Shown here piece after piece: positions 41,182-59,874 of a stretch of 64,000 bases of DNA. Positions within the stretch are counted from its first letter, which is position 1. Each line of letters opens with the position of its first letter. Position numbers and translations under genes: made by a program. The notes under the pieces were generated by a model. It was given only the letters and a program-made list of their open reading frames with translations. It ran no database searches and was not told the DNA's origin. Source of the stretch: Planctomycetaceae bacterium (GTDB taxonomy: Bacteria; Planctomycetota; Planctomycetia; Planctomycetales; Planctomycetaceae); the NCBI GenBank assembly GCA_041398785.1, contig JAWKUA010000009.1, positions 210,629-274,628 of the forward strand, in the 5' to 3' direction.

Positions 41182-41193
41182 AATCAAGACACG

Positions 41194-41266: not shown

Positions 41267-41284
41267 ATGGAGACATTTAATAAA

Positions 41285-41359: not shown

Positions 41360-41365
41360 GCTTTT

Positions 41366-41440: not shown

Positions 41441-41457
41441 ATTTGTGAGTTTATCCA

Positions 41458-41525
41458 TGCGGACGAGCCGGTGCTCAGTTGGCTTTCATAAGGCCGACCT
41501 GACGGGATCAACACCCGTGTCCGCG
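41458..41525 (+). pseudogene. tRNA-Met(CAT)-like unit with non-canonical T loop (ATCAACA) and shortened D loop
   Basis: Acceptor GCGGACG/TGTCCGC. D GAGC-CGGT-GCTC (4-nt loop). Anticodon TGGCT-TTCATAA-GGCCG. T ACGGG-ATCAACA-CCCGT. Confidence 0.35.
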
Positions 41526-41665
41526 ATTCTGTTCGTTCGAGACTTGTAGGCTGAGATTTGAGTGTTCCAACAAGGGGCCGCCGGAAGGTCGGACTTTTCC
41601 TTTGCAAGGAAGATGGTGGGGAGCGTTACCCCGTGGCTCCATTTGCGTTTGTGTAATTTGTGTTT

Positions 41666-41751
41666 CGGAGGATAGCCGGATACGGCTTGCCGGGCCGGTT
41701 TGCTAAACCGTGCGGCGTTCGCGTCGTGAGGGTTCGAATCCCTTGTCCTCC
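41666..41751 (+). tRNA. tRNA-Ser(GCT), class II
   Basis: Acceptor GGAGGAT/GTCCTCC. Anticodon CCGGT-TTGCTAA-ACCGT (27-43 C-T). Long variable arm GCGGCGTTCGCGTCGT. T GAGGG-TTCGAAT-CCCTT. Confidence 0.55.
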
Positions 41752-41753
41752 GC

Positions 41754-41829
41754 TGTGGCCGGGTCCGGTGCTGGTTTCCGGAGGCAGTTTGTGAAGCTGT
41801 TTGTCGGCGGTTCGATTCCGCTCGGTCAC
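41754..41829 (+). tRNA. tRNA-His(GTG), no genomically encoded G-1
   Basis: Acceptor GTGGCCG/CGGTCAC, C73. Anticodon GCAGT-TTGTGAA-GCTGT. T GGCGG-TTCGATT-CCGCT. The base at -1 is T. Begins 2 nt after the preceding Ser unit. Confidence 0.55.
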
Positions 41830-41842
41830 CCTCATTGTTTGT

Positions 41843-41915
41843 TGTCCTCGGAGTGTGCAGGATTTGCACGCGACTCTGCGAAGGTCGAAGACCAGGTTCG
41901 ATTCCTGGCGAGGAC
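41843..41915 (+). tRNA. tRNA-Arg(GCG)
   Basis: Acceptor GTCCTCG/CGAGGAC. D GTGT/GCAC. Anticodon CGACT-CTGCGAA-GGTCG. T CCAGG-TTCGATT-CCTGG. Confidence 0.65.
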
Positions 41916-41919
41916 ATTC

Positions 41920-42059
41920 GGTTTAACCGCGACCCCTGGGGGAGCGCTCTGGTATGACGGTTGCGAAGTCCGGCACTGGAAGTCGATTTCATTCAGCGAT
42001 GGCTTTGTTGGTCGCAGTGCCGTCTGTCGGCGCAGCGCTCGCCAGGGCTCGCGGTTAAA
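41920..42059 (+). other. ~140-nt long-stem inverted-repeat element (18-bp outer stem + nested inner stems) between tRNA units
   Basis: GTTTAACCGCGACCCCTGG (41920-41938) pairs with CCAGGGCTCGCGGTTAAAC (42041-42059). Nested pairs GAGCGCT/AGCGCTC and GGCACTG/CAGTGCC around a ~35-nt loop. MITE-like or structured-RNA-like. No coding potential. Confidence 0.6.
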
Positions 42060-42178
42060 CGATGGAAACACGGAGTATCAATGAAAGCTTGATGCTGTCA
42101 GGGCCAGCGGCGCGCCGGACTTCTCGTTCAGAGATCAGCCGCACGTGTCCCGAACATGGGTTCTGAACCGGATGGCAT

Positions 42179-42252
42179 CGAAGTGGTAGCCCAATTGGGT
42201 AGGGCATCAGGTTGCTCACCTGAAGGTTGCGGGTTCGAATCCCGTCCACAGC
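42179..42252 (+). pseudogene. degenerate tRNA-like unit (anticodon loop TTGCTCA, GCT; acceptor mismatched)
   Basis: D arm GCCC-AATTGGGTA-GGGC and anticodon stem TCAGG/CCTGA are intact, as is T arm GCGGG-TTCGAAT-CCCGT. Acceptor GAAGTGG/CCACAGC has 2 mismatches and position 37 is C. Confidence 0.3.
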
Positions 42253-42743
42253 TCCCGTTCGGCTGAAAACCGAACCAACACGAACGCGACTGCGTTCACC
42301 AAAGGCCCGAGGAAGACGAACGATTGTCTGATCTGCGGGTGATGACGTTGCGTCGATCGTTTTGGATTCACGGCAAGTCCGTGAACCCCACGGCGGCGAC
42401 AATGTCCATCACCGCAGCATGTACGGCTCGCCCTGCAGTTCACGGATACCGCGTTCCGAACGTGTGGTTGACTTCGATGGAATCAGATCCTGATGGCCTG
42501 CGGCAACGCGGCTTTCGGTGAGATGACGAGATCGACCGACGCCGCACGTTTCGGTTCGCTCAAGGGATACTCCGCGAGTCACCATGTGATCGGCAGTTGT
42601 GTCGTCTTCCGACGGCTGTTTTCTGCGTTCCGGCGATCCGGATCGTTTACCCCGTGGTCGCAGACCAGGCCGGCTTGAGACTACGTACACGACAGACCAC
42701 GTGGTCTGCGATCACGGGACAAGCGAAGAAGAAAGGCAAGTCC

Positions 42744-43903: not shown

Positions 43904-44360
43904 ATGCGCTGACGGCCGGCTCGGGTACCCGGCGATTTCGCGCCATCAGGCCCGAAACGCCGACACGTGCACTTTCCACACTGGTGTGTCGGCCCGTTTC
44001 GCCTGAAACGCATTTGGATCAACACCCCCATTTACTCGATGAGCCGCGAGCTACGAGCGCGCTTCCCGGCTCACGCCCTGGCGGCGTTTCCGAGCCGTAG
44101 CGGCGACCCGGCTGCATTTTTTCCGTTTTTTTCTGAAAGGATCCGGAAGCTCGCGCATTTCAGATTGTGGGCCGGATTTGGCGACGCCGCCACGTGCGCA
44201 GCAGGATACCGCGTGGCATTCAGCGTCCCGACGCTGCGTTCACCTGAAACGACATCAAGAGTCTGCACCCCCGGCATCAGGTCATTCACACCCGACTCGC
44301 CCGCCGCCAGGCGGCATTACGTTCGGGTTCCTGTCGTGTCCAGAATTGAGGGACGAACCG

Positions 44361-47300
44361 ATGTTCCTGTCTGCGTGGCTGTGCCGAGTGCGTTCCGTGC
44401 TGTTCGACCGAGTCCGTGCTGACGGGAGGTCTTCCGCGGCCTGCAAACGTCGTCGGCAGAGACTCTTCTCATCCGTGCCTTCGGAATCGCTGGAAGAGCG
44501 CCTGCTGCTCAGCGGCGACGGCCTGACAGATCTCGGGCTGTTTGTTGTGCCCGGCAGTCCCGACGAACAGGTCACGCTGAACTTCGAACTGTCCGACCGC
44601 AACGGCGCGTTTCGCAGTGAACTGGGACTGTTCATCGCCGACGACGATTCCGGAGCCGTCGACGGCGTCGATCCCGACCGCAACAAGTACGCTCGCGAGG
44701 CCCTGCAGGACGACAGCCATACCTTGCTGTTCGACCGATTCGATGCGATCGGCGAAACCGAATCGCTGACGGTCCCCGGCGGTTCTCACGTCGCCTTCTA
44801 TCTGATTCAGAACAGCGACTCGCGGCGGTTCCTGCGAAACAACCCGCAGAACCGACTGAATCGCTCGCCGAAGACGTTCTTTTCCGTCACCGAGGCCAAT
44901 CCCGATCACTTCGATCATCTGCGGTCGGAAGATCTGGGCTCCGGCACGTGGCAGTTCGGCTGGGAAGACCTGACCTTCGGCGGCGACCGCGATTTCGACG
45001 ACGTCGTGGTGACGCTGACTGTCGGTGACCTGCCGGGGCCGACAATCCTGACGCCTCCGTCGCCGACGGGAGTCGTCTCGGCGACGTTTACGCTCGACGA
45101 ACGCATGGCGGCGTATCGCAGTGAATTCGGCATCTTCAAAGTCGATGACGAAACCGGACGCATCGGAAATCTGACGCCCGACGACCGCGGCTACGCGCGA
45201 GCCGCGCTGACGTCGGCCTCTCAACTGACGATCTTCGAACGCAACGCTGCCGTCGGTTCTCAGGTCACCGTCGAACTGGAAGCCGACGCCCACTACGGTG
45301 TGTACCTGATTCAGAACTCATCGCTCAGCTACTGGCTGCGCCGCAATCCGCAGAACCGGCTGTGCAATTTCCCGAAGGCGTTCTTCGGATTCGTGGACGC
45401 CAATCCGGACAACTTTGACCACACGCGCTGGGACGAGAACACGATCTTCTGGGAAGACCTGACTCGCGGCGGAGACCGGGACTTCGACGACCTGGTGATT
45501 TCGTTCGAATTCGGAACGTCGACGAACCAACCTCCCGCACTGAACGCAGTCGCCGATCAGACTGTCGACGAAGATTCCACCGCTTCCGTTCAGCTCACGG
45601 CGAGCGATCCTGATTCTGACCCGGCGGACCTGATGTTCTCGCTGGTCAGCGGTCCGGCAACCGCGACGGTCAACCAGACGACCGGGCTGTTCGAATGGAC
45701 TCCATTGGAAGCCGACGGCCCCGGAACGTTTCCGGTCACTGTGCGAGTCGAAGACGAAACCGGACTGTTCGACGAGCTGACGTTCTCCGTAATCGTCAAC
45801 GAAGTGAATCAGCCTCCCGTGCTGGCTCCGATCGGCAATCGAACGGTCGACGAGGAACAAACGCTGACGTTCACGGCATCGGCCACGGACAGCGACCTGC
45901 CGCCGAACACGCTGACGTTCAGTCTCACTAACGCGCCGGCCGGTGCGTCGATCGATCCGCAGACGGGCGAATTCTCGTGGATGCCGTCCGAATCTGACGG
46001 TCCCGGAACATTCGACGTGACGGTCAACGTTCACGACGGAGTCGGCGGCAGCGATTCCGAAACGATCACGATCTCCGTCAACGAAGTGAACCAGGCTCCG
46101 GTGCTGGATCCGGTGGACGATCGTACTGTTCCGGAAAACGGCGTCGTGGCGATTCTGATTCCGGCCACCGACAACGACCTTCCGGCGAACACGCTGACCT
46201 GGTCGCTGATCGGCACCGTTCCGGCCGGAGTCAACATCGACGGCGCGACGGGGCAGTTCAACTGGACTCCGTCGGAAGCTCAGGGGCCAGGCAGCTACCC
46301 GATTACGGTTCAGGTCGACGACGGAGCCGGCGGCAGCGATCAGGTTGCGTTCACGATCACGGTGGAAGAAGTCAATGAAGCGCCGGTACTCGATCCAATC
46401 GGCAACCGGACGGCGGACGTCGACGTCGAACTGACGTTCACGGCGACGGCATCTGATCCGGACATTCCGCCGAATGCGCTGACGTTTTCGCTCGACGCAG
46501 GTGCTCCGGCGGGCGCGACGATTGATCCGGTCACCGGCGTCTTTCGCTGGACGCCGACAACCGCATTCAGCGGACAGGACGTGCCAGTCACCGTGCGAGT
46601 CACCGACGACGGCAATCCGTCGCTGGATGACTTCGAAACGATCATCATTGCAGTCGACCGCTGCGTTTTCGACGACAATCTGACGGGCTGGACGGTGACG
46701 GAATCCGGTGGTTCTGCTACCGGTCGCGGAGGTGTTGTCGCTCAGGACTGCACCGCCGTGCTAACCGAAGGTGATTCCTTTTTTGTCCAGATTCAGACCA
46801 CGTTCGACATCGTCACGACCGATTCTCAACTGTTGCTCAGCTTCAGCGGCCTGACGTTCGACACGACCGATCCGGCGTTCGTCAACGATGCATTCGAACT
46901 GGCTCTGCTGGATCAGAACGGAGTCTCGCTGGTCAGCACGACAGCTCCCGGTCGCGATGTCTTTTTCAACGTGACCGAAGAACTCTCGCCGGAAACCGCC
47001 GCCGGAGTCACGTTCGACGGTGCGACCGTGACCGTGAACCTGTCTGCCGTGCCGATCGGTTCGACGGCCACGCTGGTGGCTCGGCTGGTCAACAACGACA
47101 GCGACACGACGACATCTGTGACTCTGACGGACATGCAGATCACTCCCGGCGCGGCTCCGCTGTTGGTTGCTCCAGAGCCGTCGGGTGGTTCGAGTCAGCA
47201 GGGCTCCGCGCCGCAATCCGGTGCGAACAGTTCGGGCACCGCCGCGGTTCCGCCTGGAATCGTCACCGGTTTGTCCGCTGGCACACGGAATCCGGCCGTC

Positions 47301-50300
47301 AGCACTCCGTCGAACGGCACAGCGTCGTCGAACGGCATTGCGTTCACCGATTCGCCATTACAGGCCGGGGCTGCCGGAGTTCAGTCGCCGACATTCGATT
47401 CCCGCGGCACGGAGTTCTGGATCGGGTTCATGGACAACCTGCTGGAAAGCGGCAACGTGCCGAAGAAGCAGTTGTTCGTCACCGGTGACGTCGCCACGAC
47501 GGGATTCGTGGAGATTCCGGGGCTGATCGACCCGAGCACGTCGGTTCCATTCCGAGCGGACTTTGTTGTGAATCCCGGCGAGGTGACGACGGTCGACCTG
47601 CCGAGTCTCGACAGCCGCGAGGATTCGTTCGACACCCAAACAGACTTCGACGTTGAAGCGGAACTGATCGCCGAAATCCAGGCGCTCGGTGTGCATGTGG
47701 TGACGCAGGATGACGTGACGGTGTACGGCCTGAACCGCGCCGTGAACACGACGGACGCATTCCTTGCCCTGCCCGTCGACGCGCTGGGAACCGAGTACAT
47801 CAACCTGGGCTACAACAACGGCTCGCGACTGATCTCCAGCACTCCGAATACCGAATTTCTGGTGGTCGCCACCGAAGATGACACTGTCGTCACGATCGTG
47901 CCGGGAGAAGGATCGTTCAGCGTCGAATCGAACCTTGCCGCGATCGTCCGTCCATCTGGGACCAGCGGCCTTGGCTACACGCGGAACAACGGTACCGACA
48001 TTGGAACTCTGCTGCTGGACCAGTCCGGCACACACACGATCACGGTTGACGCGTTGCTGGAGGGTTACGCCGGCACGTATACGTTCGAACTGCTCGATTT
48101 CGCCACCGCCGCGACGCCGATCAATTTCGGCGAAACCGTCACCACGACGCTTCCGACCGGTCGCGAAGCCCGCGTGTTTTCGTTCGGCGCCACTACCGGC
48201 CAGCGGATCTACTACGACGCAATCAGTCCCGGCGGCCCCACCACGACAGTCCGCCTGGTTTCGCCCAGCGGCGTCATCACAGCCCTCAACACAAACAACG
48301 ATTTTCCCAACCCGCTCCAGACCACAACGACGCTTGCTCCGGAAACCGGTACCTACTACGTGCTTGTCGTTGGCGAAGGGGATGCCGCTTACGACTTCTC
48401 GTTCCGGATGCTTGACCTGGAGACTGCCCCGCTGCTGCCGTTCGGCACGGAAGTGACCGGCACGATGCCGCTCGGCCGTGAGACGGATGTCTTCCGTTAC
48501 AACGGCACCGCCGGCCAGCGAATCATCTACGACGGATTCGACCCAAACGGGAGCCTCGTGACGCTCGATTTGTGGGATCCGGGCATCACGCTGCTGTCGC
48601 GAACGAACGCGTTCGCCGATCTGGATCCCCGGACTCTGCCGGAAGACGGCGAATACTTCGTGACTCTGGCGAGCGGCACATTCGGTCCGCAGGCGAGCTA
48701 CGGTTTCCGCATGTTCGACGTCGCCGATCTGCCCGTCCTGCCGCTCGGCACCAGCGTCACGGGAACGTTCGGAGACGGCCGGGCTGAATTCTTCCGTCTG
48801 CCTGCCGGGCCGGCTCAGGCCGCTGCATTCAGCAATATCACCGTCACTGGCCGAATCCAGATCGATGTGTTTGATCCGTCGAACCGCAGAGTCGCAACCT
48901 TCTCGAACGGTGCCTTCGACGCGCGACTGGCACAGGAAGGCGATTACGTCGTTCGCTTGCGCGGGGTCGGAATTCTGGACAGCGGCACGTTCGACTTCCA
49001 GGTCGACCTGACCGATGACGCGCTCGTCGCCAAATCCGGACTGAACACCGAAACAACGCTCACAATCAATGCTGGTGAAACCGCGACGTATGACTTCACG
49101 GCACCGGCCGGAACACCGGTCATCCTCGATGCCCGCGATACCGTCAATGAGAACCTGCGAGTTCGCATTTTCGATCCGGACGGTGTGCTGGTTGTCGGTG
49201 GAGTTTTCGGTCTTAACGAACTCACCGATTCAGGTCCGTTCTTCCTTGAAAAATCCGGCACGTACACGCTCTCGGTCGTGGGTGACACCGCTTCGGCCGC
49301 CGGCAGCTACACGTTCCAGATCCTCGACCTGCAATCCGGTTCGACGCCGATCAGCTTCGACACGATCGTCTCCGGCACGCTTCCGACCGGTCGCGAAGCC
49401 GTTGCGTTCTCTTTCGACGGCACGGCCAATCAACTGGTCGCATACGACGGAATTGCCCCCGGTACGACCACGATCGCCACGTACGACGAAAACCTGAATC
49501 GCGTTGACGGCGTCTTCGGCAGCCTTGCTGAACGGGACGGCGGCAACAACCTGATCCGGACCGGAAAACACTACGTCGTACTGCAGGGCGTGCAGAACAC
49601 TGCCGCCGACTTCGCGTTCCGCATTCAGGACGTCAGCGCCGCCCCCGTCATCAGTCTCGGCGAAGTGATCTCCGGAACGATTACTCCCGCGCGCACCGAA
49701 CAGCACTTTCAGATCGACCTGACCGCGGGGCAGAGGCTCCTGGTGGACGGGCTCGACGACGACACAGAACGCGTGCTGCTGCAAATCACCGACCCCGGCC
49801 GCTTCACGTTTTACAGTGGCACCGCCGATCAGAACGGCGACTCATCAACCACGTTCCTGCTGACGGTTCCCCGCACCGCTCGCTATGTGGTCTCCGTGCA
49901 GGGCGACACCACCATTGATCCCGCGGACTTTTCGTTCCGCATTCTCGATCTGGACAACGCGCCGCTGCTGACGTTCGACACGGACATCGACATCACGCTC
50001 AACCCTGGCCGGCAGGCGCAGTTCTTCCGCATCGACGCTGACACCGCCGCCAGCATCGACTTCGACAACATCACCGAAACCGGTATCGGCGGGTTCTTCT
50101 GGCACCTGTTCGACCCCGCCGGACGCAATCTCGGCGGTGACAACAACGGCCGCGACTTTACCGGACGCACATGGATCGAAGGCACCTACCTTCTGGGAAT
50201 CGTCGGTCGCGTGAACACACCGATCGATTTCACGTTCCGAGCCACGCGAACGCCGGACACGCCCGTCACGCCGACCGGCTTCAATTCGCTCGAAACCATC

Positions 50301-53300
50301 ACCGTGCCGATCAACGGCCGAGGAACGTACACCTTTGACAGTCCCGCCGGACGGCTCGTGTACCTGAACGTTGTCGACAGCCAGTTCCGCATACCGGAAC
50401 ACACCGTCACGCTGGATGCCGGCGAAACGTATCTGATTCGCGATCAGCTCAACAACTTCGGCGCCGTGGCCGACCTGACCGGCACGATCATCACCGGCGA
50501 CAAACCATTCGCGCTGTTCGGCGGCAGCCGCGCGGCATTCGTGCCCACGAACTTCTTCGCGGCCGATCACCTGGTCGAACAGATGACGCCCACCAGCACG
50601 TGGGGCCGGCGGTTCGTCACGTTCCCGCTGGCCACGGGCACGACTGTCGGCGATCGCTACCGCTTTCTTGCGCAGGCGGACGGCACCGAAGTCTTCGTCG
50701 ACGGCACACTCGTCGCCACGCTCAATCGTGGACAATTCCACGAAATGGTCCTCGTCGACGCCGCGGAGGTTACGTCGAACAACCCGATCCTGGTCGCGCA
50801 GTACGCTCAGTCGCAGGAGTTCTACCGGAACCAGCCCGGCGGTGATCCGAACTTCCTGGGCGATCCGTTCATGATGCTGGTACCGCCGTTCGAACAGTTC
50901 CTGGCCAATTACACGGTGGCGACTCCGGCGGAAGACGCGATTCCCGAAGGCGAACGTTTCGATCGCAATTTCCTGAACATTGTCGCACCGGCTGACGCGG
51001 TCGGATTGATCGAAGTCAACGGAACGCCGGTCGACGCGAGCGACTACACCGCCATCGGAACCAGCGGCTTCTTCGGAGTCCAGGTGCCAATTGATCTCGG
51101 TTCGTACGAAGTCGCCGGGCCGCAGCCGTTCGGTTTGTTCGTGTACGGCTTCGGCAGCTTCGATTCGTACGGCTATGTCGGCGGCCAGTCGCTGAGCGAA
51201 GTGGCAACCGTCAGCGCCGTCACGCTGGTTCCGGAAACCGTCAGCCTGCCGATCAACACGCTGCAGGATTTCACCGCCACCGTCACCGATAGCGACGGCA
51301 ATTCTGTGGAAGGCGTGCGAGTGGACTTTTCGGTTGCCGGAGCCAACCCGCAGACCGGCTTCGCGTTCACGGACTCCGCTGGAGTCGCCGTGTTCACGTA
51401 CACCGGAACGATCGAAGGCCGCGATGTCGTGTCCGCTTCTGTCGGAACGATCGTGGATGATTCGATCGTCGACTGGCTCGGCGACGTAGCGCCGCCAACG
51501 ATCACCATTCTGTCTCCGGCGGCCGGCACGACCGTGCCCGCCGGAACCACGCTGGTTGTCACTGGCATCGCCGCTGCCGACCGGCCGTTCGCGTCGCTGG
51601 ACTACGTGTCGGTCAACGGAATTCCCGTCGAAAGCTTCGACGCCGCTGGAAACTTCTTCACGCGAGTCTTTGTCGGTCCCGGCGACAACGTGTTCCAATT
51701 CGCCGCTCACGATTCCCGCGATCAGACCGCTACCGTCACGCTGATTCTGACCGGCGAACAGATCCCTGACGGCGAAGTCGACTTCTCGCAGTTCTCCGAC
51801 GTCACGGGCAGCTTCGACGTCGCGTACGCTCAGACGTCGTTCAATGCGGCGACACAGACGCTGTTCGCGGACATCGCCGTTCGCAACACCGGACAGTTCT
51901 CAGCCGACGTCCCGCTGCTGGTCGGAATCACCAACATCACCGATCCGCGAGTTCTCGTCCGCAACATCGACGGCACGACCCCCGACGGCATTCCGTTCTA
52001 CGACTTCACCGGGCTGGTCATGAGCGGATCGCTCGATCCGAACAGCGAAACCGGCTTCCTGTCGGCTGAGTTCTTCAATCCGAACGGCACACAATTCGAC
52101 TACGACCTGGTCTTCTTCGGCCGCCTGAACGAAGCACCGGCGATCGTATCTCTTCCGACAACGACTGCGATCGTCGACCGAACGTTTGCCTACGACGCCG
52201 ACGCGACTGATGCGAACAACGACGCGCTGACATTTTCGCTGCTGCAGGCTCCGGCCGCGATGACGATCGACCCGGTCAGCGGTTTCGTTTCGTGGACACC
52301 GACCGCCGTCGACCGCGGCTCGCATTCCGTCACGGTCGAAGTCACCGACGGCCGCGGCGGTCGTGCCGAACAGTCATTCGTCTTGACCGTCGTCGACGCG
52401 CCGGCCAATCGAGCACCTGCGTTCACGACAACTCCGCCCGTGCTGGCAACGCTGGACACGCAATATGTCTACGACGCCGACGCCATCGATGCCGACGGCG
52501 ATTCGCTGACATTCTCGCTGGTCGACGGCCCTGCCGGAATGACGGTTGATCCGGCGACGGGACTCGTCACCTGGACACCGACCGCTGCTCAGTTGGCGAC
52601 CCACTCCGTGACGCTGGAAGTCTCCGACGGCAACGGAGGCACCGCGCGGCAGTCGTTCACCCTCTGCAGCATCGACCCAGCTTCGATTCCCGCCGACGAT
52701 GCCAACACCGCTCCGGTGATTACATCCACGCCGCCGCTGACGGCGTTGACCGGCCAGCCATTCGAGTACCGAATCTTCGCCCAGGACGCGAACGACGACG
52801 CGCTGACATTCAGCCTGAACGCCCCGCCTGCCGGAGCAACCATCACGCCGATAACCGGGCTGCAGGCCGCAACGTTCTCGTTCACTCCTGCAACTGTCGG
52901 AACGCAGACAGTCGAAATTCAGGTCGGCGACGGCAACGGTGGAGTCACGATTCAGGCATTCGACATTCAGGTCAGCGATCCGACAGGAAACAACGCCCCG
53001 GTCATCAGTTCGAATCCGCGACTCACAATTCCGATCGGCCGCACATGGGCGTATTTCGTTGACGCCTTCGATGTTGACAACGACGCTCTTGTGCTGTCAC
53101 TAACGACATCGCCTGCCGCGATGACGCTGGACGCAGATGCTCGGCAGTTGCTGTGGATGCCGACCGCCGCCGACATCGGCACGCACGATGTTACCGTATC
53201 CGTTGATGACGGGCAGGGTGGCATCGTCACGCAGTCGTTCACACTGGACGTGGTTTCTCAGGAAGCGAATACCGCACCGCAGATCGTCTCAACACCGCAG

Positions 53301-54221
53301 ACGTTCGCGGTCGCCGGCACTGCGTTCGAATACGACCTGCTGGCCTTCGACGCCGACAACGATCCGGTACAGTGGTCGTTGGTCCAGGCACCTGCCGGAG
53401 TTTCCATCGATCCGCTCAACGGAACGCTGCGCTGGACGCCAACTCTGAATCAACTCGGGCTGCAGCAATTTGTCGTGCAGGGAACTGACCCGTCGTTCGC
53501 GGCCGTGACGCAGGAATTCACGGTTTCCGTAACGTGTCTGAACCTTCCTCCAACGATCGCATCGGCACCGGGAACCGCAGCCGTCACCGATCAGCGCTAT
53601 GTTTATCCGGTGCGAGCATTCGATCCGGAAGGCGATGTCCTGACGTTCTCGCTGACGACGGCCCCGGCCGGAATGCAGGTTGATCCGCTCACCGGAGTCA
53701 TCCGCTGGACGCCCGATTCAACGCAAACCGGTTTGGCGAATGTCACCGTCGTCGTCACGGATGCGGCCGGCAATTCGGCTACGCAGAGCTTTGCCGTTAA
53801 CGTGACTCAGCAGGTCGTGAACCTCGACCCCGTCATTACGTCACGGCCCGGCTTCCGAGCCACCGTTGACGCTCTGTACGAATATCAGGTCGACGCCGAA
53901 GACCCGGAAGGCGAAGTTGTCACGTTCAGTCTGCTGACTTCGCCGACAGGAATGACGATCGACGCGAATGGCCTGATTCTGTGGACACCCGCCTCAACGC
54001 AGGCGGGTCCGCACATTGTTGAAGTTGCCGTCGACGACGGTCAGGGCGGCCGAGCCATCCAGCGGTTCGCGATTCTCGCGCGAATCAACCAGGCACCGGC
54101 AATCACGTCGACCGCACCGGCGACCGTTTCCAGCCACGCAACGTTCCGCTACGACGTCGTCGCCGAGGATCCGGAAGGCGATGCGGTGACGTTCTCGCTG
54201 ACCACTCGCCGGCCGGCATGA
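44361..54221 (+). CDS. giant secreted adhesin-like protein, N-terminal ~3300 aa of a frameshifted DUF4114 / cadherin-like / RHS fusion
   Basis: Start taken at MFLSAWLCRV (ATG 44361; ORF opens 44178). Two DUF4114-like modules (WQFGWEDLTFGGDRDFDDVVVT; FWEDLTRGGDRDFDDLVIS). About 8 then about 12 cadherin-like/putative-Ig ~95-aa repeats (VNQPPVL...TLTFSL...IDP.TG.F.WTP). A lectin-like module. Nine ~95-aa beta-sandwich repeats (FELLDFATAATPINFGETVTTTLPTGREA...). Frame ends at TGA 54219-54221 by frameshift, not by a domain boundary. Confidence 0.8.
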   Translation: MFLSAWLCRVRSVLFDRVRADGRSSAACKRRRQRLFSSVPSESLEERLLLSGDGLTDLGLFVVPGSPDEQVTLNFELSDRNGAFRSELGLFIADDDSGAVDGVDPDRNKYAREALQDDSHTLLFDRFDAIGETESLTVPGGSHVAFYLIQNSDSRRFLRNNPQNRLNRSPKTFFSVTEANPDHFDHLRSEDLGSGTWQFGWEDLTFGGDRDFDDVVVTLTVGDLPGPTILTPPSPTGVVSATFTLDERMAAYRSEFGIFKVDDETGRIGNLTPDDRGYARAALTSASQLTIFERNAAVGSQVTVELEADAHYGVYLIQNSSLSYWLRRNPQNRLCNFPKAFFGFVDANPDNFDHTRWDENTIFWEDLTRGGDRDFDDLVISFEFGTSTNQPPALNAVADQTVDEDSTASVQLTASDPDSDPADLMFSLVSGPATATVNQTTGLFEWTPLEADGPGTFPVTVRVEDETGLFDELTFSVIVNEVNQPPVLAPIGNRTVDEEQTLTFTASATDSDLPPNTLTFSLTNAPAGASIDPQTGEFSWMPSESDGPGTFDVTVNVHDGVGGSDSETITISVNEVNQAPVLDPVDDRTVPENGVVAILIPATDNDLPANTLTWSLIGTVPAGVNIDGATGQFNWTPSEAQGPGSYPITVQVDDGAGGSDQVAFTITVEEVNEAPVLDPIGNRTADVDVELTFTATASDPDIPPNALTFSLDAGAPAGATIDPVTGVFRWTPTTAFSGQDVPVTVRVTDDGNPSLDDFETIIIAVDRCVFDDNLTGWTVTESGGSATGRGGVVAQDCTAVLTEGDSFFVQIQTTFDIVTTDSQLLLSFSGLTFDTTDPAFVNDAFELALLDQNGVSLVSTTAPGRDVFFNVTEELSPETAAGVTFDGATVTVNLSAVPIGSTATLVARLVNNDSDTTTSVTLTDMQITPGAAPLLVAPEPSGGSSQQGSAPQSGANSSGTAAVPPGIVTGLSAGTRNPAVSTPSNGTASSNGIAFTDSPLQAGAAGVQSPTFDSRGTEFWIGFMDNLLESGNVPKKQLFVTGDVATTGFVEIPGLIDPSTSVPFRADFVVNPGEVTTVDLPSLDSREDSFDTQTDFDVEAELIAEIQALGVHVVTQDDVTVYGLNRAVNTTDAFLALPVDALGTEYINLGYNNGSRLISSTPNTEFLVVATEDDTVVTIVPGEGSFSVESNLAAIVRPSGTSGLGYTRNNGTDIGTLLLDQSGTHTITVDALLEGYAGTYTFELLDFATAATPINFGETVTTTLPTGREARVFSFGATTGQRIYYDAISPGGPTTTVRLVSPSGVITALNTNNDFPNPLQTTTTLAPETGTYYVLVVGEGDAAYDFSFRMLDLETAPLLPFGTEVTGTMPLGRETDVFRYNGTAGQRIIYDGFDPNGSLVTLDLWDPGITLLSRTNAFADLDPRTLPEDGEYFVTLASGTFGPQASYGFRMFDVADLPVLPLGTSVTGTFGDGRAEFFRLPAGPAQAAAFSNITVTGRIQIDVFDPSNRRVATFSNGAFDARLAQEGDYVVRLRGVGILDSGTFDFQVDLTDDALVAKSGLNTETTLTINAGETATYDFTAPAGTPVILDARDTVNENLRVRIFDPDGVLVVGGVFGLNELTDSGPFFLEKSGTYTLSVVGDTASAAGSYTFQILDLQSGSTPISFDTIVSGTLPTGREAVAFSFDGTANQLVAYDGIAPGTTTIATYDENLNRVDGVFGSLAERDGGNNLIRTGKHYVVLQGVQNTAADFAFRIQDVSAAPVISLGEVISGTITPARTEQHFQIDLTAGQRLLVDGLDDDTERVLLQITDPGRFTFYSGTADQNGDSSTTFLLTVPRTARYVVSVQGDTTIDPADFSFRILDLDNAPLLTFDTDIDITLNPGRQAQFFRIDADTAASIDFDNITETGIGGFFWHLFDPAGRNLGGDNNGRDFTGRTWIEGTYLLGIVGRVNTPIDFTFRATRTPDTPVTPTGFNSLETITVPINGRGTYTFDSPAGRLVYLNVVDSQFRIPEHTVTLDAGETYLIRDQLNNFGAVADLTGTIITGDKPFALFGGSRAAFVPTNFFAADHLVEQMTPTSTWGRRFVTFPLATGTTVGDRYRFLAQADGTEVFVDGTLVATLNRGQFHEMVLVDAAEVTSNNPILVAQYAQSQEFYRNQPGGDPNFLGDPFMMLVPPFEQFLANYTVATPAEDAIPEGERFDRNFLNIVAPADAVGLIEVNGTPVDASDYTAIGTSGFFGVQVPIDLGSYEVAGPQPFGLFVYGFGSFDSYGYVGGQSLSEVATVSAVTLVPETVSLPINTLQDFTATVTDSDGNSVEGVRVDFSVAGANPQTGFAFTDSAGVAVFTYTGTIEGRDVVSASVGTIVDDSIVDWLGDVAPPTITILSPAAGTTVPAGTTLVVTGIAAADRPFASLDYVSVNGIPVESFDAAGNFFTRVFVGPGDNVFQFAAHDSRDQTATVTLILTGEQIPDGEVDFSQFSDVTGSFDVAYAQTSFNAATQTLFADIAVRNTGQFSADVPLLVGITNITDPRVLVRNIDGTTPDGIPFYDFTGLVMSGSLDPNSETGFLSAEFFNPNGTQFDYDLVFFGRLNEAPAIVSLPTTTAIVDRTFAYDADATDANNDALTFSLLQAPAAMTIDPVSGFVSWTPTAVDRGSHSVTVEVTDGRGGRAEQSFVLTVVDAPANRAPAFTTTPPVLATLDTQYVYDADAIDADGDSLTFSLVDGPAGMTVDPATGLVTWTPTAAQLATHSVTLEVSDGNGGTARQSFTLCSIDPASIPADDANTAPVITSTPPLTALTGQPFEYRIFAQDANDDALTFSLNAPPAGATITPITGLQAATFSFTPATVGTQTVEIQVGDGNGGVTIQAFDIQVSDPTGNNAPVISSNPRLTIPIGRTWAYFVDAFDVDNDALVLSLTTSPAAMTLDADARQLLWMPTAADIGTHDVTVSVDDGQGGIVTQSFTLDVVSQEANTAPQIVSTPQTFAVAGTAFEYDLLAFDADNDPVQWSLVQAPAGVSIDPLNGTLRWTPTLNQLGLQQFVVQGTDPSFAAVTQEFTVSVTCLNLPPTIASAPGTAAVTDQRYVYPVRAFDPEGDVLTFSLTTAPAGMQVDPLTGVIRWTPDSTQTGLANVTVVVTDAAGNSATQSFAVNVTQQVVNLDPVITSRPGFRATVDALYEYQVDAEDPEGEVVTFSLLTSPTGMTIDANGLILWTPASTQAGPHIVEVAVDDGQGGRAIQRFAILARINQAPAITSTAPATVSSHATFRYDVVAEDPEGDAVTFSLTTRRPA

Positions 54222-57200
54222 CAATCGATCGCTCGGCCGGATTCTGTGGGCGACCACCGCCGCCGACGTTGGCACGCACACCGCGACCGTCGTCGTCACA
54301 GACATCTACGGAGCCACCGGGACGCACTCGTTCACGCTCGACGTGACTCCCGACATGACAGCTCCTGTCGTCGACCTGCTGCTGAGCCGCCAATCCGGCG
54401 GCCATCAGCTCGGACGTTGTCATTCAGGTCCTGGCAACCGACGACGTTGCCGTCGACCGGACGCGCTGACGATCGACGGAACACCGGTCGTCGTCGATTC
54501 GTTCGGTACGGCGTCGTTCCGCTCTGCGACTCCCGGCCTGTTCGACATTGTCGCCACGGCCTTCGACGAAGCCGGCAACGAAACGACCGCTTCGGTCACG
54601 CTGCGAGTTATCGATCCCGCGGACACGCTCGGACCGGTCATCGACATCACCGGACCGTCGCCGAATTCTGAAGTCACAACGCTGACCGACATCATCGGTT
54701 CGGTGACCGACGACAACCTGGAATTCTTCACGGTGGAATTCGGCCGAGCGGATCTGGTCGACATCAACGACCCGACAGCATTCGATCCGGACTACGTCAC
54801 GATCGCCACCGGAACAGCCGACGTCACCAACGCGCTGCTCGGCACATTCGACCCGACGCTGCTGATGAATGACTCGTACATCATCCGAGTCTTCGCACAA
54901 GACCTCAGCGGCAACGTATCGGCTCAAACGCTGCCAATCAGCATAGACGGGCAACTGAAATTCGGACAGTTCACACTGAATCAGACTGATCTAGCGGTGT
55001 CCGTGGCGGGAACTCCAATCGAACTCACGCGAACCTACGACACTCGCCAGTCGGGTGAACAGGGAGATTTTGGATTTGGCTGGAACCTCGCAATTCAAGA
55101 CGCTCAGATTCGTGAAACGATTCCGGTCAATCCCCTGGAGAAAGATGGGCTGATCCTGGCGGCGACTCCATTCAAAGCCGGAACGCGAGTCTATCTCACC
55201 AATCCCGAAGGTAAACGTGTTGGATTCACGTTCGACCCCGAGCCGCAGTTCAGCCTCTTTGGCGGCGGTTCGTTCTCGCCGAGGTTTGTTCCCGATCCCG
55301 GTGTGTACGACACACTGGATGTGGGCTCGATCCCGCTGCGTTTGGTGAATGGGGCGTTCTATAGCGGATTCTTCGGCAACCCGTTCAATCCGTCGGCGTA
55401 CAGACTGACAACGCGTGATGGAGTCGTCTACGAGTACGGTCAGTTCTCCGGACTGCAGAATGTCATTGATCGAAACGGTAACCGGTTGGAGTTCCGCGAA
55501 GACGGGATCTTCAGTTCCACGGGTGAATCCGTTCGGTTCGTGCGAGATCCTGCGGGCCGGATCTCGCAGGTCATTGACCCCGCTGGCCGGTCGTTGACTT
55601 ACGAATACGATGCGAACGGAGACCTGACCCGTTTCACTGATCAGGCCGGCCTGCTCACGCAATATACGTACCTGACGGCCCCGGCGCACTTCATGGAAAC
55701 GGCGGTCGATCCCAACGGCAACACGGTTTTCGAGCTGCAATACGACGCCGACGGACGGTTGACGAGAAGCACAGACGCCGGCGGTGCGACGATTCAGAAC
55801 ACGTACAATCCGGGGCAACTCAGCGAAACGATCACTGACCCGCTCGGCAACGAAATCACCACGCGGTTCGACTCCCGCGGCAACCTGCTTTCATTCACGG
55901 ACGCCCTCGGTGAATCGGTCTCGTTCACCTACGACGCCAGCGACAACATCATCACGGCCACCGATGGCAACGGAAATGTTGTTACACGCACCATCGACAC
56001 CCGCGGCAACCTGACCAGCCTCAAGGACCCGCTCGGCAACAGCTTCGTCCTGACCTACGGCGAAGACAACCAGGTGACGTCCATCATGGACTCAGCCGGC
56101 AATGTATCTCGCTCCAGATACGACGAAGCCGGCAACCTGATTCAGTACGTCAACGCGGCTGGAGTCGTCAGTTCCTACCAATACGATGCACAGGGCCGTC
56201 CGACATCGTACACCGACAACAACGGCAACAGCACGCAGTACGTATACGGCAGCGGACCTCGCCCTGAAGAAGTCATCCACGCCGACGGCACGCGGGAACG
56301 CTACGAATACAATTACCTCGGCCAGGTCACCAGAGCAGTCGACGAAAACGGCTTCGCGACACTTTACACGTACGACGCAATCGGACGGCCCACGTCCGTC
56401 GAAAACGCTCTTGGTCAAACCACGACCTACACCTACGACGGTCGCTATCTCAGCAGTCGAACGGATGCCCTTGGGCGAATCACCCGGTATGTGTTCGACG
56501 AGAAGGGTCGCCGGACTGCGGTAACGGATGCTGCCGGTAACACGACTCAATTCGGATACGACGATAATAACCAGTTGGTTACGGTCACCGACCCGCTCGG
56601 CGGCATCACGACGACAGACTACCGCGCTGACGGCGAAGTCGAGTCCGTCGTCGATGCACTCGGAAATACTGTGAGGTATGAATATGACTCGGTCGGAAAT
56701 GTCACCGCGGTCATCGATCCCAGGGGAAATCGTACTGAGTACCAATATGACGCAATGGGCCGATTGCTGGAGACGATGGATTCTCTCGGCGGTACGACCT
56801 CTTACACGTACGATGCGGCCGGCAACCTGCTGACAGCGATGCAGGCAAACGGCGCCACCGTGACTTACGTCTATGACAGCCTCAACCGTCTCGTTTCGGC
56901 GACCGATCCGCTGGGCGGTCGCTTTGAATACACATACGACGCCAACGGCAACCTGCGAACGTTCACCGACGCGAACGACCACGTGTCGAACCTGTTCTAC
57001 GACTCGCGCGATCGAGTGACGCGGATCGTTGATCCCGCTGGCGAGACACTTCACTTCACCTACGATGCGGCCGGTAACATCGAGACCGCAATTGACCCTG
57101 CAGATCAAACAACGTCCTATGTGTACGACGCGCTGGACAGGCTGATCAGAGTTACTGATCCGATCGGCAATACGACCGCTTATACGTATGATGCCGTCGG

Positions 57201-59874
57201 CAATTTGGAATCACTCACTGACCCCACTGCCCGCACAACAACCTATTCTTATGACAGCCTTTATCGCCTGACGGCAGTTACTGACGCGGCGGGCGAACGA
57301 ACGCAGTTCGGCTATGACGCACTCGGACGGCGAACATCGGTCACCGATGCACTCGACCAGAAGACAACATTCGCTTACGACGCAATCGGCCGTCTGACTA
57401 CCGAAACCGACCCTCTCGGGCTGTCAACGTCATTTGCTTACGACGCGAACGGTAACCGGATTCGAGTCACGGACCGCAATGATCGAGTGACCGAATTCAA
57501 CTACGACGCGCTGAATCGTGTCGTCGAGGAACGTTGGCTGGACAATGCGTCGTCTGTGCTTCGACAGGTCACTTTCGTGTACGACGCCGTCGGGAATCTC
57601 CTCGCGGCGAGCGACCCCGACAGCGTCCTGACCTTTACTTACGACCTGCTGAGCCGCGTCAGCACAGCCGATGTTACGGGAACACCGCGACTGCCGGATA
57701 TTGTTCTGACATACACCTATGACGCCGTCGGCAACCTGCTGAATACTCACGACGACAGCGGCGTCCAGGTAACTTCGCTGTACGATGAACGCGATCTGCT
57801 GATCAATCGAGTATGGCAGGGAGGAGGCATCGATCCGGCCAGTGTCGATGTAGACTACAACGCCCGACGCGAACGTACTCACGTGACTCGCTACTCCGAT
57901 GCCAGCGGTTTGGCTGCAATTGGCAGCTCGATTTACGACTACGACGCCGCAGGCCGGCTGACTGATATTCAACATCAGGACGAACTCGATCAGGTCTTCG
58001 TCGACTATGACTATCTGTTCGATGAAGCGGGCCGCCTGGTGAATGAAGCCCATCACGGCGCTTCCGTTGCCTATGAATACGATGCGCTCGGCCAGTTGAC
58101 TGCCGCCGACTACAGCAGCGGTGCGTCTGTCGCGGATCAGACCTTCCAGTATGACGAGAACGGCAACCGAACAGATCCCGGCTTCGTTGTTGCCGCGAAC
58201 AACCGCATCGAATCCGACGGGACCTACAACTACGCGTATGACAACGAAGGCAATCTGATTCGCCGAACACAGATCGGGTCCGGCGACTACACGGAATTCA
58301 CATGGGACTACCGCAATCGCCTGACGCAGGTCGAACAATTCGATTCAACAGGAACGTCGCAAAGCTTCGCAACATATACCTACGATGCGCTGAACCGGCG
58401 CATTCGAAAGGATGTCGACGGAATTGTGACTGCAACGGTGTACTCATTCGACGCTGCCTGGGCCGACTTTGATGATGCCAAAAATGTGACCGCCCGTTAT
58501 CTGCCCAGCGGCCAGGTCGACGAATTCTTTGCTCGCTGGCGGCCAGGCGAAGGAACAGCGTGGTATCTGACCGACCGTCTCGGCACGGTTCGCGACATTG
58601 CCGACGAAACAGGCACAACCGTTGACCATATCGACTACGACAGCTTCGGAAATGTCGCGGACGAGTCAAACCCTGCGTTCGGCGATCGGTTCAAGTTCAC
58701 CGGCCGGGAATACGACGCCGAAACGGGTCTGTATTACTACCGGGCACGCTACTACGATCCGACGCTTGGCCGGTTCATCAGCGAAGATCCGCTGGGCTTC
58801 AGCGGTGGCGACGCAAACCTTCAACGCTACGTCGCCAACGACCCGCTGAACGCCGTCGATCCAACCGGCATGCAGGCCATTGCATCGTACGGCGGAGCGC
58901 TGGCGGCGAACCAGGCTGTTGCTCAGGCCGCGATCTTCTACGGCAAGGATGTCCCATTCCGCTTCCAGATTCAGTGTCAGGGAGCGAACTGTGTTGTTTC
59001 GGGCGGCCCGTCTGGACTGGGTGACCTATCGAAGGTTCCTGACTTTGACCTCGGCGGCGGTATTTCCGTGGGCGGGAGTGGGGTTTCGATTTCCGATGGC
59101 TTTGGCGAGAAGCTCACAGTTGGTGCCGGCGGAATCACGGCCTCCGGCGGCGAAACCTCCGTTGGGATCAACGGCGATGGAGTGACTTTTAGGGCGCCCG
59201 GGACTCAAACGACTGTTGGTCCAGGCGGAGCGTCGGGCAGTGGCGGCGGAGCCAGCTACACTTCAAATGGTGCCGGTGGTCCCTTCTTCAAGGTCGGCCC
59301 GTTTCACTACGGTCAACCGGTGAAGACTGGCAGCACTGCCTTGCCCGCGCAGCCATCTGACGGCGAATTCGATTTCCTTGTCGAATCGGTGGCAAAGTCG
59401 TCAAACATCATCATTAGTGCAAACACCGCGATCTTTGCCGGAGTCGCCACCGAACTAAACATCATCGCTCAGGCAGCTGCGGCAGATGATGCGACTCGGC
59501 TGGTCCAGGCGAACTTTGAAAAGTCTGTCCTGAGCGGTGACTTCAAAGCGACCGTCCAGGCTCGCGGATTCGCGCGTCTACCGGGCCGACGCCCCGGCAT
59601 TTCCAGTGGAGCATCAGGCCCGGCCGGTCCGAACGCAGGTCCGGGCGGCGGTACAGCTGGTGGAGGCAGCGGTCCGGCCGGCGGAGGCGGCGGGGCTGGC
59701 GGCCCAGGGGGAGGATCCGGTTCCGGTTCGAATTTCAGCGGCAGCGTCATTCCTCTGAATTCGCGTTCGTATCTTCGGCGGCCGTTTCTGATGTTCATCG
59801 ATCCTCGGCAGTTCGATGCGTTTTCGCAACTGATCGTTGATCCGTTTAACAACATCTCAGTCGTCGTTGAATGA
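54202..59874 (+). pseudogene. continuation of the giant gene: RHS/YD-repeat core with C-terminal polymorphic-toxin tail (frame broken by several 1-nt shifts between 54204 and 54468)
   Basis: The repeat consensus continues across frames: FSLTT (frame 0), SPAGMTID (frame 2), RSLGRILWATTAADVGTHTATVVVTD (frame 1), SAANPAAISSDVVIQVLATDDVAVDRT (frame 2), LTIDGTPVVVDSF (frame 1). Then RHS hallmarks: LTRTYDTRQSGEQGDFGFGWNLA, dozens of YD repeats, core end DPLGFSGGDANLQRYVANDPLNAVDPTGMQ, and a ~330-aa Gly-rich C-terminal domain. ORF track lists 54343..59874. Confidence 0.75.

What the first reader, a model, noticed from the sequence alone, without database searches (positions are those of the whole stretch)
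44361..59874. About 5,150-codon DUF4114 / cadherin-like / RHS fusion gene interrupted by about four frameshifts in 270 bp
The two giant ORFs (3347 aa and 1843 aa) are one gene. The 95-aa cadherin-like repeat consensus continues seamlessly if the frame is changed at about 54205 (0 to 2), 54228 (2 to 1), 54385 (1 to 2) and 54466 (2 to 1). These were worked out codon by codon. The product would join an adhesin-like N-terminal 3.3k aa (DUF4114 x2, about 20 cadherin-like Ig domains, 9 beta-sandwich repeats) to a complete RHS shell and a C-terminal toxin domain. That is an unusually large delivery scaffold. Four shifts in one short stretch, with none elsewhere in 15 kb, suggests either a localised assembly error or recent pseudogenisation at a slippery repeat junction. 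Less likely is a phase-variable region.
Basis: partly seen in the sequence, partly recalled or inferred. Interest (0 to 1): 0.7.

Follow-up and report, generated by a model that had tools for sequence, protein, structure and literature searches.

The report
Giant RHS surface-protein gene, frame broken
Two neighbouring giant genes in this planctomycete genome bin are one roughly 5,170-codon gene for an Ig-domain stalk carrying an RHS toxin cage, and four single-base gains or losses within 257 bases split it, most likely through a local sequence error or otherwise a very recent mutation.

Summary
ORF1 (44361-54221, NCBI MEZ6061266.1) and ORF2 (to 59874, MEZ6061267.1) are collinear with one orthologous gene in a related Planctomycetaceae MAG (L003, 78.7% nt identity over 13.5 kb). 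The only uncompensated gaps that are not multiples of three are -1 at 54206, -1 at about 54229, +1 at 54387 and -1 at 54462. Repair gives a 5,171-codon ORF and restores a full He_PIG domain. An intact 4,882-aa single-ORF homologue exists (L004).

The shifted stretch still shows purifying selection in the old frame (dN/dS 0.19), so the shifts are very recent or not real. About 35 other genes in the window are intact. Four indels this close together have p of about 2e-5 under a uniform model, and they sit on the window's GC maximum. No homopolymer, repeat or slippery site is present. I favour a local consensus error (about 0.6) over a real recent mutation cluster (about 0.33). Only reads can decide.

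The product is an ordinary kind of protein for PVC bacteria: LEPR-XLL-like leader, DUF4114 x2, Ig-like arrays, complete RHS shell with core, and a rare, uncharacterised 333-aa C-terminal domain. No immunity gene was found. Interest is low to moderate.

The parts
44361..54221 (+). ORF1, the N-terminal 3,286 codons of the ancestral gene, ending at a premature TGA (54219-54221) 13 nt after the first indel. Annotated at NCBI as MEZ6061266.1, 'putative Ig domain-containing protein'.
   Evidence: Collinear with L003 from residue 1.
44484..44525 (+). LEPR-XLL-like N-terminal motif (SESLEERLLLSGDG), probably an export leader of giant planctomycete surface proteins.
   Evidence: NCBIfam NF012209, 16.1 bits against a cut-off of 17, so marginal. 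The same L-E-x-R-x-L-L motif is present in the N-termini of L003, L004, L006 and L008.
44775..45512 (+). Two DUF4114 domains (aa about 139-220 and about 312-384).
   Evidence: Pfam PF13448, 2 stretches, E 1.5e-30. Coordinates of the second domain are read from the sequence.
45525..47500 (+). First array of Ig-like domains (He_PIG / Big_9 / RibLong / Cadherin_4).
   Evidence: pieces 1-2.
47500..51150 (+). Central region: two IgGFc_binding-like domains and about 550 aa with no Pfam match.
   Evidence: pieces 3-5; NCBIfam found nothing.
51267..51744 (+). Big_1 and Glucodextran_B-like beta-sandwich domains.
   Evidence: piece 5.
51900..54350 (+). Second array of about 95-aa He_PIG / Big_9 / Cadherin_5 domains. 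The last unit (about 54070-54350) contains indels 1 and 2.
54206..54208 (+). Indel 1: one base missing (frame 0 to 2), between ACC ACT and CCG GCC GGC ATG.
54229..54240 (+). Indel 2: one base missing (frame 2 to 1). The L003 alignment places it at 54229 (GAT-CG). It cannot be placed more precisely than 54229-54240.
54387..54388 (+). Indel 3: one extra C (AGC[C]GCC; frame 1 to 2), directly after (CTG)3.
54461..54462 (+). Indel 4: one base missing (CGG A-C GCG; frame 2 to 1). Together with indel 3 it is frame-neutral for ORF2.
54355..59874 (+). ORF2 as annotated at NCBI (MEZ6061267.1, 1839 aa, 'RHS repeat-associated core domain-containing protein'). Its first 36 codons or so are partly out-of-frame remains of the Ig-like domain that follows the last He_PIG unit. 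It has no leader of its own.
54961..58872 (+). RHS/YD shell of about 1,300 aa: DUF6531 plug (54961-55095), more than 22 RHS repeats, and the Rhs-associated core (58636-58872) with DPLGF...DPTGM.
   Evidence: Pfam RHS_repeat E 1e-149; DUF6531 28.4 bits; TIGR03696 1-76/76, 89.1 bits; motif positions.
58873..59871 (+). 333-aa C-terminal domain after the core cleavage motif. Conserved core EFxFLVxSxA...AIFxGVAxELxxIA, then a Gly/Pro-rich linker and a conserved about 45-aa tail. Function unknown.
   Evidence: No Pfam hit at E<=1. 69% identical in L003 and 33% in L004. Only 11 cluster representatives in 1.84e9 proteins, always after an Rhs core. AF2 pLDDT 41.

Best explanation
The locus is one gene of 5,171 codons (44361-59874).

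Inferred from domain content: the intact product is a secreted, cell-surface protein. An N-terminal LEPR-XLL-type leader and two DUF4114 domains are followed by about 3,000 aa of Ig-like and beta-sandwich domains that form a long stalk. The C-terminus is a complete RHS/YD cocoon (plug, shell, Rhs core). By analogy with solved Rhs and Tc proteins, the cocoon encloses the 333-aa C-terminal domain and cuts it free at DPTGM|Q with the core's aspartyl autoprotease, for delivery to a neighbouring cell.

Shown: in this assembly the frame is broken by four 1-nt indels (-1, -1, +1, -1) within 257 bp. Inferred: these are most likely local consensus errors of the MAG assembly, a short poorly supported patch at the GC-richest spot of the window, rather than mutations in the organism. 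The NCBI annotation as two proteins is therefore an artefact of the break.
For: One gene:
- The L003 orthologue is collinear over 13.5 kb and continuous at the break.
- Single-ORF homologues of 4,287-4,882 aa occur in four other MAGs.
- Seven shorter database proteins span the junction at 100% query coverage.
- Repair restores a full He_PIG domain.

Recent or unreal shifts:
- Mismatches to L003 in the shifted stretch are 16/7/42 at codon positions 1/2/3 of the old frame, and dN/dS there is 0.19, against 0.08-0.13 elsewhere.
- 5.4 kb downstream remains open.

Error rather than mutation:
- Four indels within 257 bp and none in the other 15 kb of the gene gives p = 1.7e-5 under a uniform model.
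- No frameshift is seen in about 35 other genes of the 64-kb window, which have full-length Pfam matches.
- The damage is indels only, about 1.5% per base, and deletion-biased.
- The stretch is the GC maximum of the window (0.67; 99th percentile).
- The contig is 274,628 bp. From my own experience, not tested here, that length suggests a long-read or hybrid MAG assembly, in which unpolished patches look like this.

RHS identity.
Against: No reads, qualities or independent assembly of the same organism could be obtained, so the error reading is an inference from pattern only.

The sister orthologue L003 carries an in-frame TAA replacing a conserved Tyr codon. A megahit MAG, L012, has a frameshift in its He_PIG array. 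Genuine disruption of this gene family may therefore be common.

No homopolymer of 4 or more lies at the sites, so classic homopolymer miscalls are not an obvious cause. 66% GC is not extreme.

For the function: the C-terminal domain matches no toxin family and is conserved among orthologues rather than polymorphic. No immunity gene was found. The leader motif scores just under its cut-off.
Confidence: 0.58

Rival explanations
1. The four indels are real, making this a very recent pseudogene. A single localised mutagenic event hit the GC-rich stretch and inactivated a giant gene that is a large mutational target and may be dispensable or costly in this population. An error-prone repair patch producing -1/+1 frameshifts is one candidate.
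For: Independent disruptions occur in relatives: a TAA nonsense in L003 at a conserved Tyr (a substitution is an unlikely consensus error), a frameshift in short-read MAG L012, and many breaks in L001 and L002. The stretch is somewhat more diverged than usual: 69% aa identity against a median of 83%, which is the lowest 4-8% of windows. Purifying-selection signatures fit a recent event as well as they fit an error.
Against: Neutral decay after inactivation would scatter lesions over 15 kb, not place four within 257 bp (p = 1.7e-5). Four indels with at most about a dozen excess substitutions is an unusual ratio for natural decay (my own estimate from general knowledge of pseudogene decay). No selective logic links the four events: indel 1 alone creates a stop 13 nt later. 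The L001 and L002 breaks probably reflect error-prone assemblies.
Confidence: 0.33
2. The public annotation is right and these are two functional genes: an Ig-domain adhesin (MEZ6061266.1) and a separate RHS protein (MEZ6061267.1), evolved by gene fission.
For: Both ORFs are long and open, and NCBI annotates them as proteins without a pseudogene flag. Indels 3 and 4 cancel in ORF2's frame, leaving it open from 54202.
Against: ORF1 ends in the middle of a He_PIG domain (1-45/96). ORF2 starts inside an Ig-like domain, includes 25 out-of-frame residues, and has no leader or secretion domain. Orthologues L003 and L004 are continuous here. Divergence in the 'intergenic' stretch is still codon-structured in the ancestral frame.
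Confidence: 0.04
3. The break is a regulated or programmed frame change: phase variation at a simple repeat, or ribosomal frameshifting that yields the full-length protein.
For: A single +1 shift anywhere in the 17-nt overlap 54202-54218 would give one continuous ORF.
Against: There is no homopolymer of 4 or more, and no repeat of non-3n unit, at any of the four sites. No recognisable slippery sequence precedes the TGA, judged by reading the sequence. Four changes of both signs are needed to recover the conserved protein. Orthologues need no shift.
Confidence: 0.02

Closest known systems
Rhs / YD-repeat polymorphic toxins with solved cocoon structures (T6SS Rhs effectors such as the Photorhabdus Rhs of PMC8636562 and Tse5 of PMC10684867; Tc toxin TcB-TcC)
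   Same: It has more than 22 RHS repeats, a DUF6531 plug, and a full Rhs-associated core with the DPxG...DPxG autoprotease motif followed by a C-terminal cargo domain. The shell, about 1,300 aa, is of the usual size.
   Different: There is no PAAR, VgrG-binding or TcA-binding N-terminus. In its place are about 3,300 aa of leader, DUF4114 and Ig-like domains. The cargo belongs to no described toxin family and is conserved between species rather than polymorphic. No adjacent immunity gene was found.
WapA of Bacillus subtilis and Streptococcus suis (Sec-exported, wall-associated Rhs toxins; PMC12704120, and Koskiniemi et al. 2013 from my own knowledge)
   Same: Both are T6SS-independent, surface-displayed RHS proteins, with N-terminal surface-association domains ahead of the RHS shell.
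   Different: WapA is about 2,300 aa, uses cell-wall-binding repeats, has a nuclease-type CT and a cognate WapI immunity gene. This protein is 5,171 aa with Ig-like arrays, an unknown CT and no identified immunity gene.
Giant Ig-array plus RHS proteins of PVC and other MAGs (L004 4,882 aa Pirellulaceae; L008 4,308 aa; L016 4,462 aa Verrucomicrobiae; L010 4,287 aa cyanobacterial MAG; P0097 5,789 aa)
   Same: The order of modules matches (He_PIG array, Ig-like domain, DUF6531, RHS shell, core). L004 is collinear over window residues 738-5094 at 42-44% identity and shares the CT family.
   Different: Those are uninterrupted ORFs. L004, L006 and L008 carry dockerin-like repeats after the leader instead of DUF4114. 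None of them is experimentally characterised.
LEPR-XLL domain-containing giant proteins of Planctomycetota (NCBIfam NF012209); giant genes of PVC phyla (bioRxiv 10.1101/2023.11.21.568195)
   Same: It has the N-terminal L-E-x-R-x-L-L motif, extreme length and repetitive extracellular domains. Proteins of 5,000 aa or more are frequent in Planctomycetota.
   Different: The score is just below the family cut-off (16.1 against 17 bits). An RHS cage at the C-terminus is not part of that family's definition.

Membership tests
Rhs / YD-repeat protein family | Many RHS/YD repeats, enough for a closed shell | tested here: met
   Pfam RHS_repeat has 22 stretches, E 1.1e-149; TIGR01643 E 1.9e-41. The shell span is about 1,300 aa.
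Rhs / YD-repeat protein family | Rhs-associated core domain with the aspartyl autoprotease motif (DPxG...DPxG) at the end of the shell | tested here: met
   TIGR03696 matches 1-76/76 at 89.1 bits (cut-off 32.5). The sequence reads DPLGFSGGDANLQRYVANDPLNAVDPTGM, ending at nt 58872. Cleavage itself was not tested.
Rhs / YD-repeat protein family | N-terminal plug closing the shell | tested here: met
   Pfam DUF6531 scores 28.4 bits (cut-off 24.1) at 54961-55095.
Polymorphic toxin system (Zhang et al. 2012, PMC3482391) | C-terminal domain of a recognised toxin family that varies between strains | tested here: not met
   There is no Pfam hit at E<=1. The CT is conserved at 69% in L003 and 33% in L004. 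The family is rare, with 11 representatives. The AF2 model is too poor for a fold search.
Polymorphic toxin system (Zhang et al. 2012, PMC3482391) | Cognate immunity gene immediately downstream | tested here: not met
   The next gene (59974-61017) is a PEP-CTERM protein with an HExxH motif and a signal-like N-terminus. It has no homologue next to L003 or L004. Only a weak 78-aa match links window 61375-61965 to L003.
Polymorphic toxin system (Zhang et al. 2012, PMC3482391) | N-terminal trafficking domain or signal | tested here: inconclusive
   LEPR-XLL NF012209 scores 16.1 bits against a cut-off of 17. The motif is conserved in homologues. No PAAR, VgrG-binding or TcdB hits were seen.
He_PIG / Big_9 bacterial Ig-like domain arrays | Tandem domains of about 90-96 aa matching the profiles above threshold | tested here: met
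   He_PIG E 2e-93 with 10 stretches; Big_9 E 1e-61 with 11 stretches. The repaired junction unit matches 1-96/96.
Frameshifted gene (pseudogene or assembly error) | Reading frame interrupted relative to intact orthologues, with homology continuing in other frames | tested here: met
   Four uncompensated 1-nt gaps against L003. Homologues are continuous.
Frameshifted gene (pseudogene or assembly error) | Indels supported, or not supported, by the underlying reads | not testable with these tools
   No reads are available. No second assembly of the organism was found.
Phase-variable contingency locus | Homopolymer or non-3n simple repeat at the shift site | tested here: not met
   There is no homopolymer of 4 or more in 54150-54520, only (CCG)3, (CGT)3, (CTG)3 and (GTC)3.

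The most novel reading that the evidence does not exclude
The four indels and L003's nonsense codon are both real. Natural populations of these planctomycetes would then repeatedly switch off a costly giant RHS surface weapon by mutation, with the GC-rich last He_PIG unit acting as a local frameshift hotspot. In addition, the rare conserved post-core domain (hydrophobic helix NIIISANTAIFAGVATELNIIAQAA, Gly/Pro linker, conserved R-S-Y-L-R-x-P tail) could be a new membrane-active cargo class specific to stalked RHS proteins that works without a dedicated immunity gene.
Probability: 0.12. Interest if true: 0.5.

Novelty: new member of a known kind. Interest (0 to 1): 0.25.

Why it matters
In practice this corrects a public annotation. 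MEZ6061266.1 and MEZ6061267.1 are two halves of one 5,171-aa protein. The case also shows how a short indel cluster can hide giant genes in MAGs.

Biologically, it adds a well-documented example, with orthologues, of T6SS-independent RHS cages mounted on multi-thousand-residue Ig stalks in Planctomycetota. It also flags a rare, uncharacterised post-core domain family. None of this would surprise a specialist. The break itself is most likely technical.

Tried and rejected
- **Finding the source contig or a second assembly.** The look-up of encoding contigs found nothing for two window proteins. The metagenome scan gave only distant relatives. The genome scan gave orthologues but not the organism itself. 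An exact look-up did identify the NCBI MAG and its protein accessions, but neither reads nor sequencing technology.
- **Literature search** for accession prefixes and isolate names found nothing relevant. The same was true for 'LEPR-XLL' and for 'Rhs' with 'He_PIG'.
- **Systematic error at a methylation motif (CCGG near all four sites).** Rejected, because CCGG occurs 195 times in the gene.
- **Repeat-induced misassembly or gene conversion from another He_PIG unit.** Rejected. The best internal DNA match is 85% over 54 nt, there are no shared 20-mers at the junction, and the stretch stays orthologous to L003.
- **Homopolymer or SSR slippage.** Rejected.
- **Other frameshifts in the window.** None were found. 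The same-frame ORF triplet 25645-31584 on the minus strand is three separate genes with complete domains.
- **C-terminal domain.** The word-indexed protein search returned nothing, probably because Gly-rich words swamped the candidate list. AlphaFold2 with a 10-sequence alignment gave pLDDT 41, so no fold search was run.
- **Internal repeats of the central region** were not detected by blastp.
- **Caveat.** That search listed only proteins of about 1,130 aa or less, so it could not show full-length giants. Those came from the loci.

Full report
**Observation**

The window holds two adjacent plus-strand ORFs, 44178..54221 (frame 0) and 54343..59874 (frame 1). Exact look-up shows the source is an NCBI MAG labelled 'Planctomycetaceae bacterium' (locus tags R3C19_*, contig 274,628 bp). 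There the ORFs are annotated as two proteins. MEZ6061267.1 has 1,839 aa and starts at ATG 54355. Neither carries a pseudogene flag.

Translating the three frames of 54061-54660 shows the He_PIG-type repeat leaving frame 0 after ...TFSLTT. It continues as PAGMTID in frame 2, then ILWATTAADVGTH...TAPVVDLLLS in frame 1, then ANPAAISSDVVIQVLATDDVAVDR in frame 2, then ALTIDGTPVVVDSFG... in frame 1. Splicing these gives a 5,171-codon ORF without stops.

**Independent test with an orthologue**

A scan of one genome per species found L003 (MAG Planctomycetaceae bacterium ABC2.145, JAWKUE010000004.1). Its gene aligns with the window at 78.7% nucleotide identity over 13,495 columns.

Every gap in that alignment is a multiple of three or is cancelled within 15 nt, except four. 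The window lacks one base at 54206, lacks one at 54229, has one extra at 54387, and lacks one at 54462.

The repaired junction matches Pfam He_PIG end to end (1-96/96, 52.2 bits). The unrepaired ORF1 tail matches only the first half (14.8 bits) and the ORF2 head matches nothing significant.

One refinement applies. Indels 3 and 4 cancel in ORF2's frame, which is open from 54202, so the net break (-2) comes from indels 1 and 2. Indel 1 creates the TGA at 54219.

**One gene**

The L003 protein is collinear with the repaired window protein from residue 1 to 5170 at 67-81% identity. L004, a megahit-assembled Pirellulaceae MAG, encodes a single 4,882-aa ORF collinear with window residues 738-5094. 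L008 (4,308 aa), L010 (4,287 aa, cyanobacterial MAG) and L016 (4,462 aa, Verrucomicrobiae) are also single ORFs with He_PIG arrays running into an RHS shell. Seven shorter database proteins span the junction at 100% query coverage. ORF2 has no leader and begins inside an Ig-like domain. Gene fission into two working genes is therefore very unlikely.

**Age of the shifts**

Against L003, mismatches in the shifted stretch fall 16/7/42 on codon positions 1/2/3 of the ancestral frame, as in the rest of the gene (550/368/1916). Nei-Gojobori dN/dS is 0.19 for the stretch, 0.11-0.13 for ORF1, 0.08 for the RHS shell and 0.12 for the C-terminal domain. The stretch was therefore translated in the old frame for essentially all of the divergence time. 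The indels are very recent or not real. Amino-acid identity in the stretch (69%) is in the lowest 4-8% of 83-codon windows, which is suggestive but not significant.

**Error or mutation**

Several observations favour a technical cause:
- The four indels span 257 bp while the other 15 kb of the gene has none (p = 1.7e-5 under a uniform model).
- A codon-usage gene map and Pfam scans of about 35 other genes in the 64-kb window show complete domains and no frame breaks.
- The stretch coincides with the GC maximum of the whole window (0.67 for 54000-54299; 54191-54480 is at the 99th percentile).
- The damage is indel-only, about 1.5% per base, and deletion-biased. From my own experience, this is what an unpolished or thinly covered long-read patch looks like in an otherwise clean hybrid assembly. 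Contigs of 274 kb and 446 kb fit that kind of assembly.

Specific alternatives were excluded. There are no DNA repeats at the site. There is no homopolymer of 4 or more and no non-3n repeat. CCGG lies near all four sites but occurs 195 times in the gene.

Other observations argue against a purely technical view. L003 has an in-frame TAA where the window has a conserved Tyr TAC. L012, a short-read MAG, has a frameshift inside its He_PIG array. L001 and L002 are broken many times along the whole gene, although that looks like generally error-prone assemblies.

Without reads I put a local consensus error at about 0.6 and a real recent mutation cluster at about 0.33.

**What the gene encodes**

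In order along the protein:
- A leader with SESLEERLLLSGDG. The NCBIfam LEPR-XLL score is 16.1 bits against a cut-off of 17, and the motif recurs in L003, L004, L006 and L008.
- Two DUF4114 domains.
- An Ig-like array (He_PIG, Big_9, RibLong, Cadherin_4).
- A central region with two IgGFc_binding-like domains and about 550 unassigned residues.
- Big_1 and Glucodextran_B-like domains.
- A second He_PIG/Big_9/Cadherin_5 array and one more Ig-like domain.
- The DUF6531 plug, more than 22 RHS repeats, and a full Rhs-associated core (TIGR03696 1-76/76, 89 bits) ending DPTGM at 58872.
- A 333-aa C-terminal domain.

Established structures of Rhs and Tc proteins (PMC8636562, PMC10684867) show that the shell encloses the C-terminal domain and that the core cleaves it. 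I infer the same here, with the Ig stalk presenting the cage away from the cell surface in a T6SS-independent, WapA-like manner. That inference was not tested.

**C-terminal domain**

It has no Pfam match even at E<=1. It is conserved in L003 (69%) and L004 (33%). An exhaustive HMMER scan of 1.84 billion representatives found only 11 relatives. They lie directly after an Rhs core, including in a 5,789-aa protein, or occur as short fragments.

The conserved core is EFxFLVxSxA...AIFxGVAxELxxIA...GFA. It is followed by a Gly/Pro-rich or acidic linker and, in some members, an SdrD_B-like domain. AlphaFold2 with ten sequences gave pLDDT 41, so no fold comparison was made. Calling it a toxin is a guess.

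No conserved immunity gene follows. The next gene is a PEP-CTERM HExxH protein that is absent beside L003 and L004.

**Comparison and novelty**

The locus passes the membership tests for the Rhs/YD family (repeats, plug, core). It fails two tests for a classical polymorphic toxin system: a recognised variable toxin, and an adjacent immunity gene.

The overall architecture is shared with uninterrupted giants in several phyla. Proteins of 5,000 aa or more are common in Planctomycetota (bioRxiv 10.1101/2023.11.21.568195). RHS toxins exported by the general secretory route are known in the phylum (PMC3482391).

It is a new member of a known kind. The frame break is most likely technical. Interest is 0.25.

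Noticed in passing
window 39314-42255 (+): A dense array of 24 tRNA genes lies in 2.9 kb, about 2 kb upstream of the giant gene (ARAGORN; 17 reach Rfam's gathering score). It covers 18 amino-acid identities and includes tRNA-Ile(tat), four tRNA-Ser, and two 'tRNA-Leu' of only 73-77 nt, which seems too short for a long variable arm. It may be a mobile or phage-type tRNA array.
   Followed up: partly
L003 8636-8638 (corresponds to window 52191-52193): The closest orthologue (MAG ABC2.145) is itself interrupted, by a single in-frame TAA that replaces the conserved Tyr codon TAC of a He_PIG motif (TFAY/DxDAxD). It is annotatable as two ORFs of 2,516 and 2,537 aa.
   Followed up: partly
L012 about 7790-7810; L001 and L002 throughout: Other homologues are also broken. 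L012, a megahit MAG, has one frame change inside its He_PIG array. L001 and L002 change frame many times along the gene. Disruption of this giant gene family in MAGs, whether real or technical, is frequent.
   Followed up: partly
window 54000-54480: The frameshift cluster lies on the highest-GC 300-bp stretch of the whole 64-kb window (0.67, against a mean of 0.594 and SD of 0.029).
   Followed up: yes
window 58873-59871; P0095-P0105: The post-core domain belongs to a very rare family, with 11 representatives in 1.84e9 proteins. In some members (P0096, P0098, P0103) an acidic linker and an SdrD_B-like domain follow it, which is odd for a cargo supposed to sit inside an RHS cage.
   Followed up: partly
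window 59974-61017 (+) and 62891-63436 (-): Two PEP-CTERM-tailed proteins flank the downstream region. The first carries an HELGH zinc-protease motif (weak Peptidase_M10/M43 hits).
   Followed up: no
window 35155-37392: An Fae (formaldehyde-activating enzyme) fusion protein sits beside an ATP-grasp gene. This is the H4MPT-linked C1 module typical of Planctomycetota and is consistent with the taxonomic label.
   Followed up: no
window aa about 380-470 of the giant protein (about 45500-45770): The window protein has one more Ig-like repeat unit of about 95 aa than L003 (alignment offset 470 to 375), which is repeat-number variation between orthologues.
   Followed up: no
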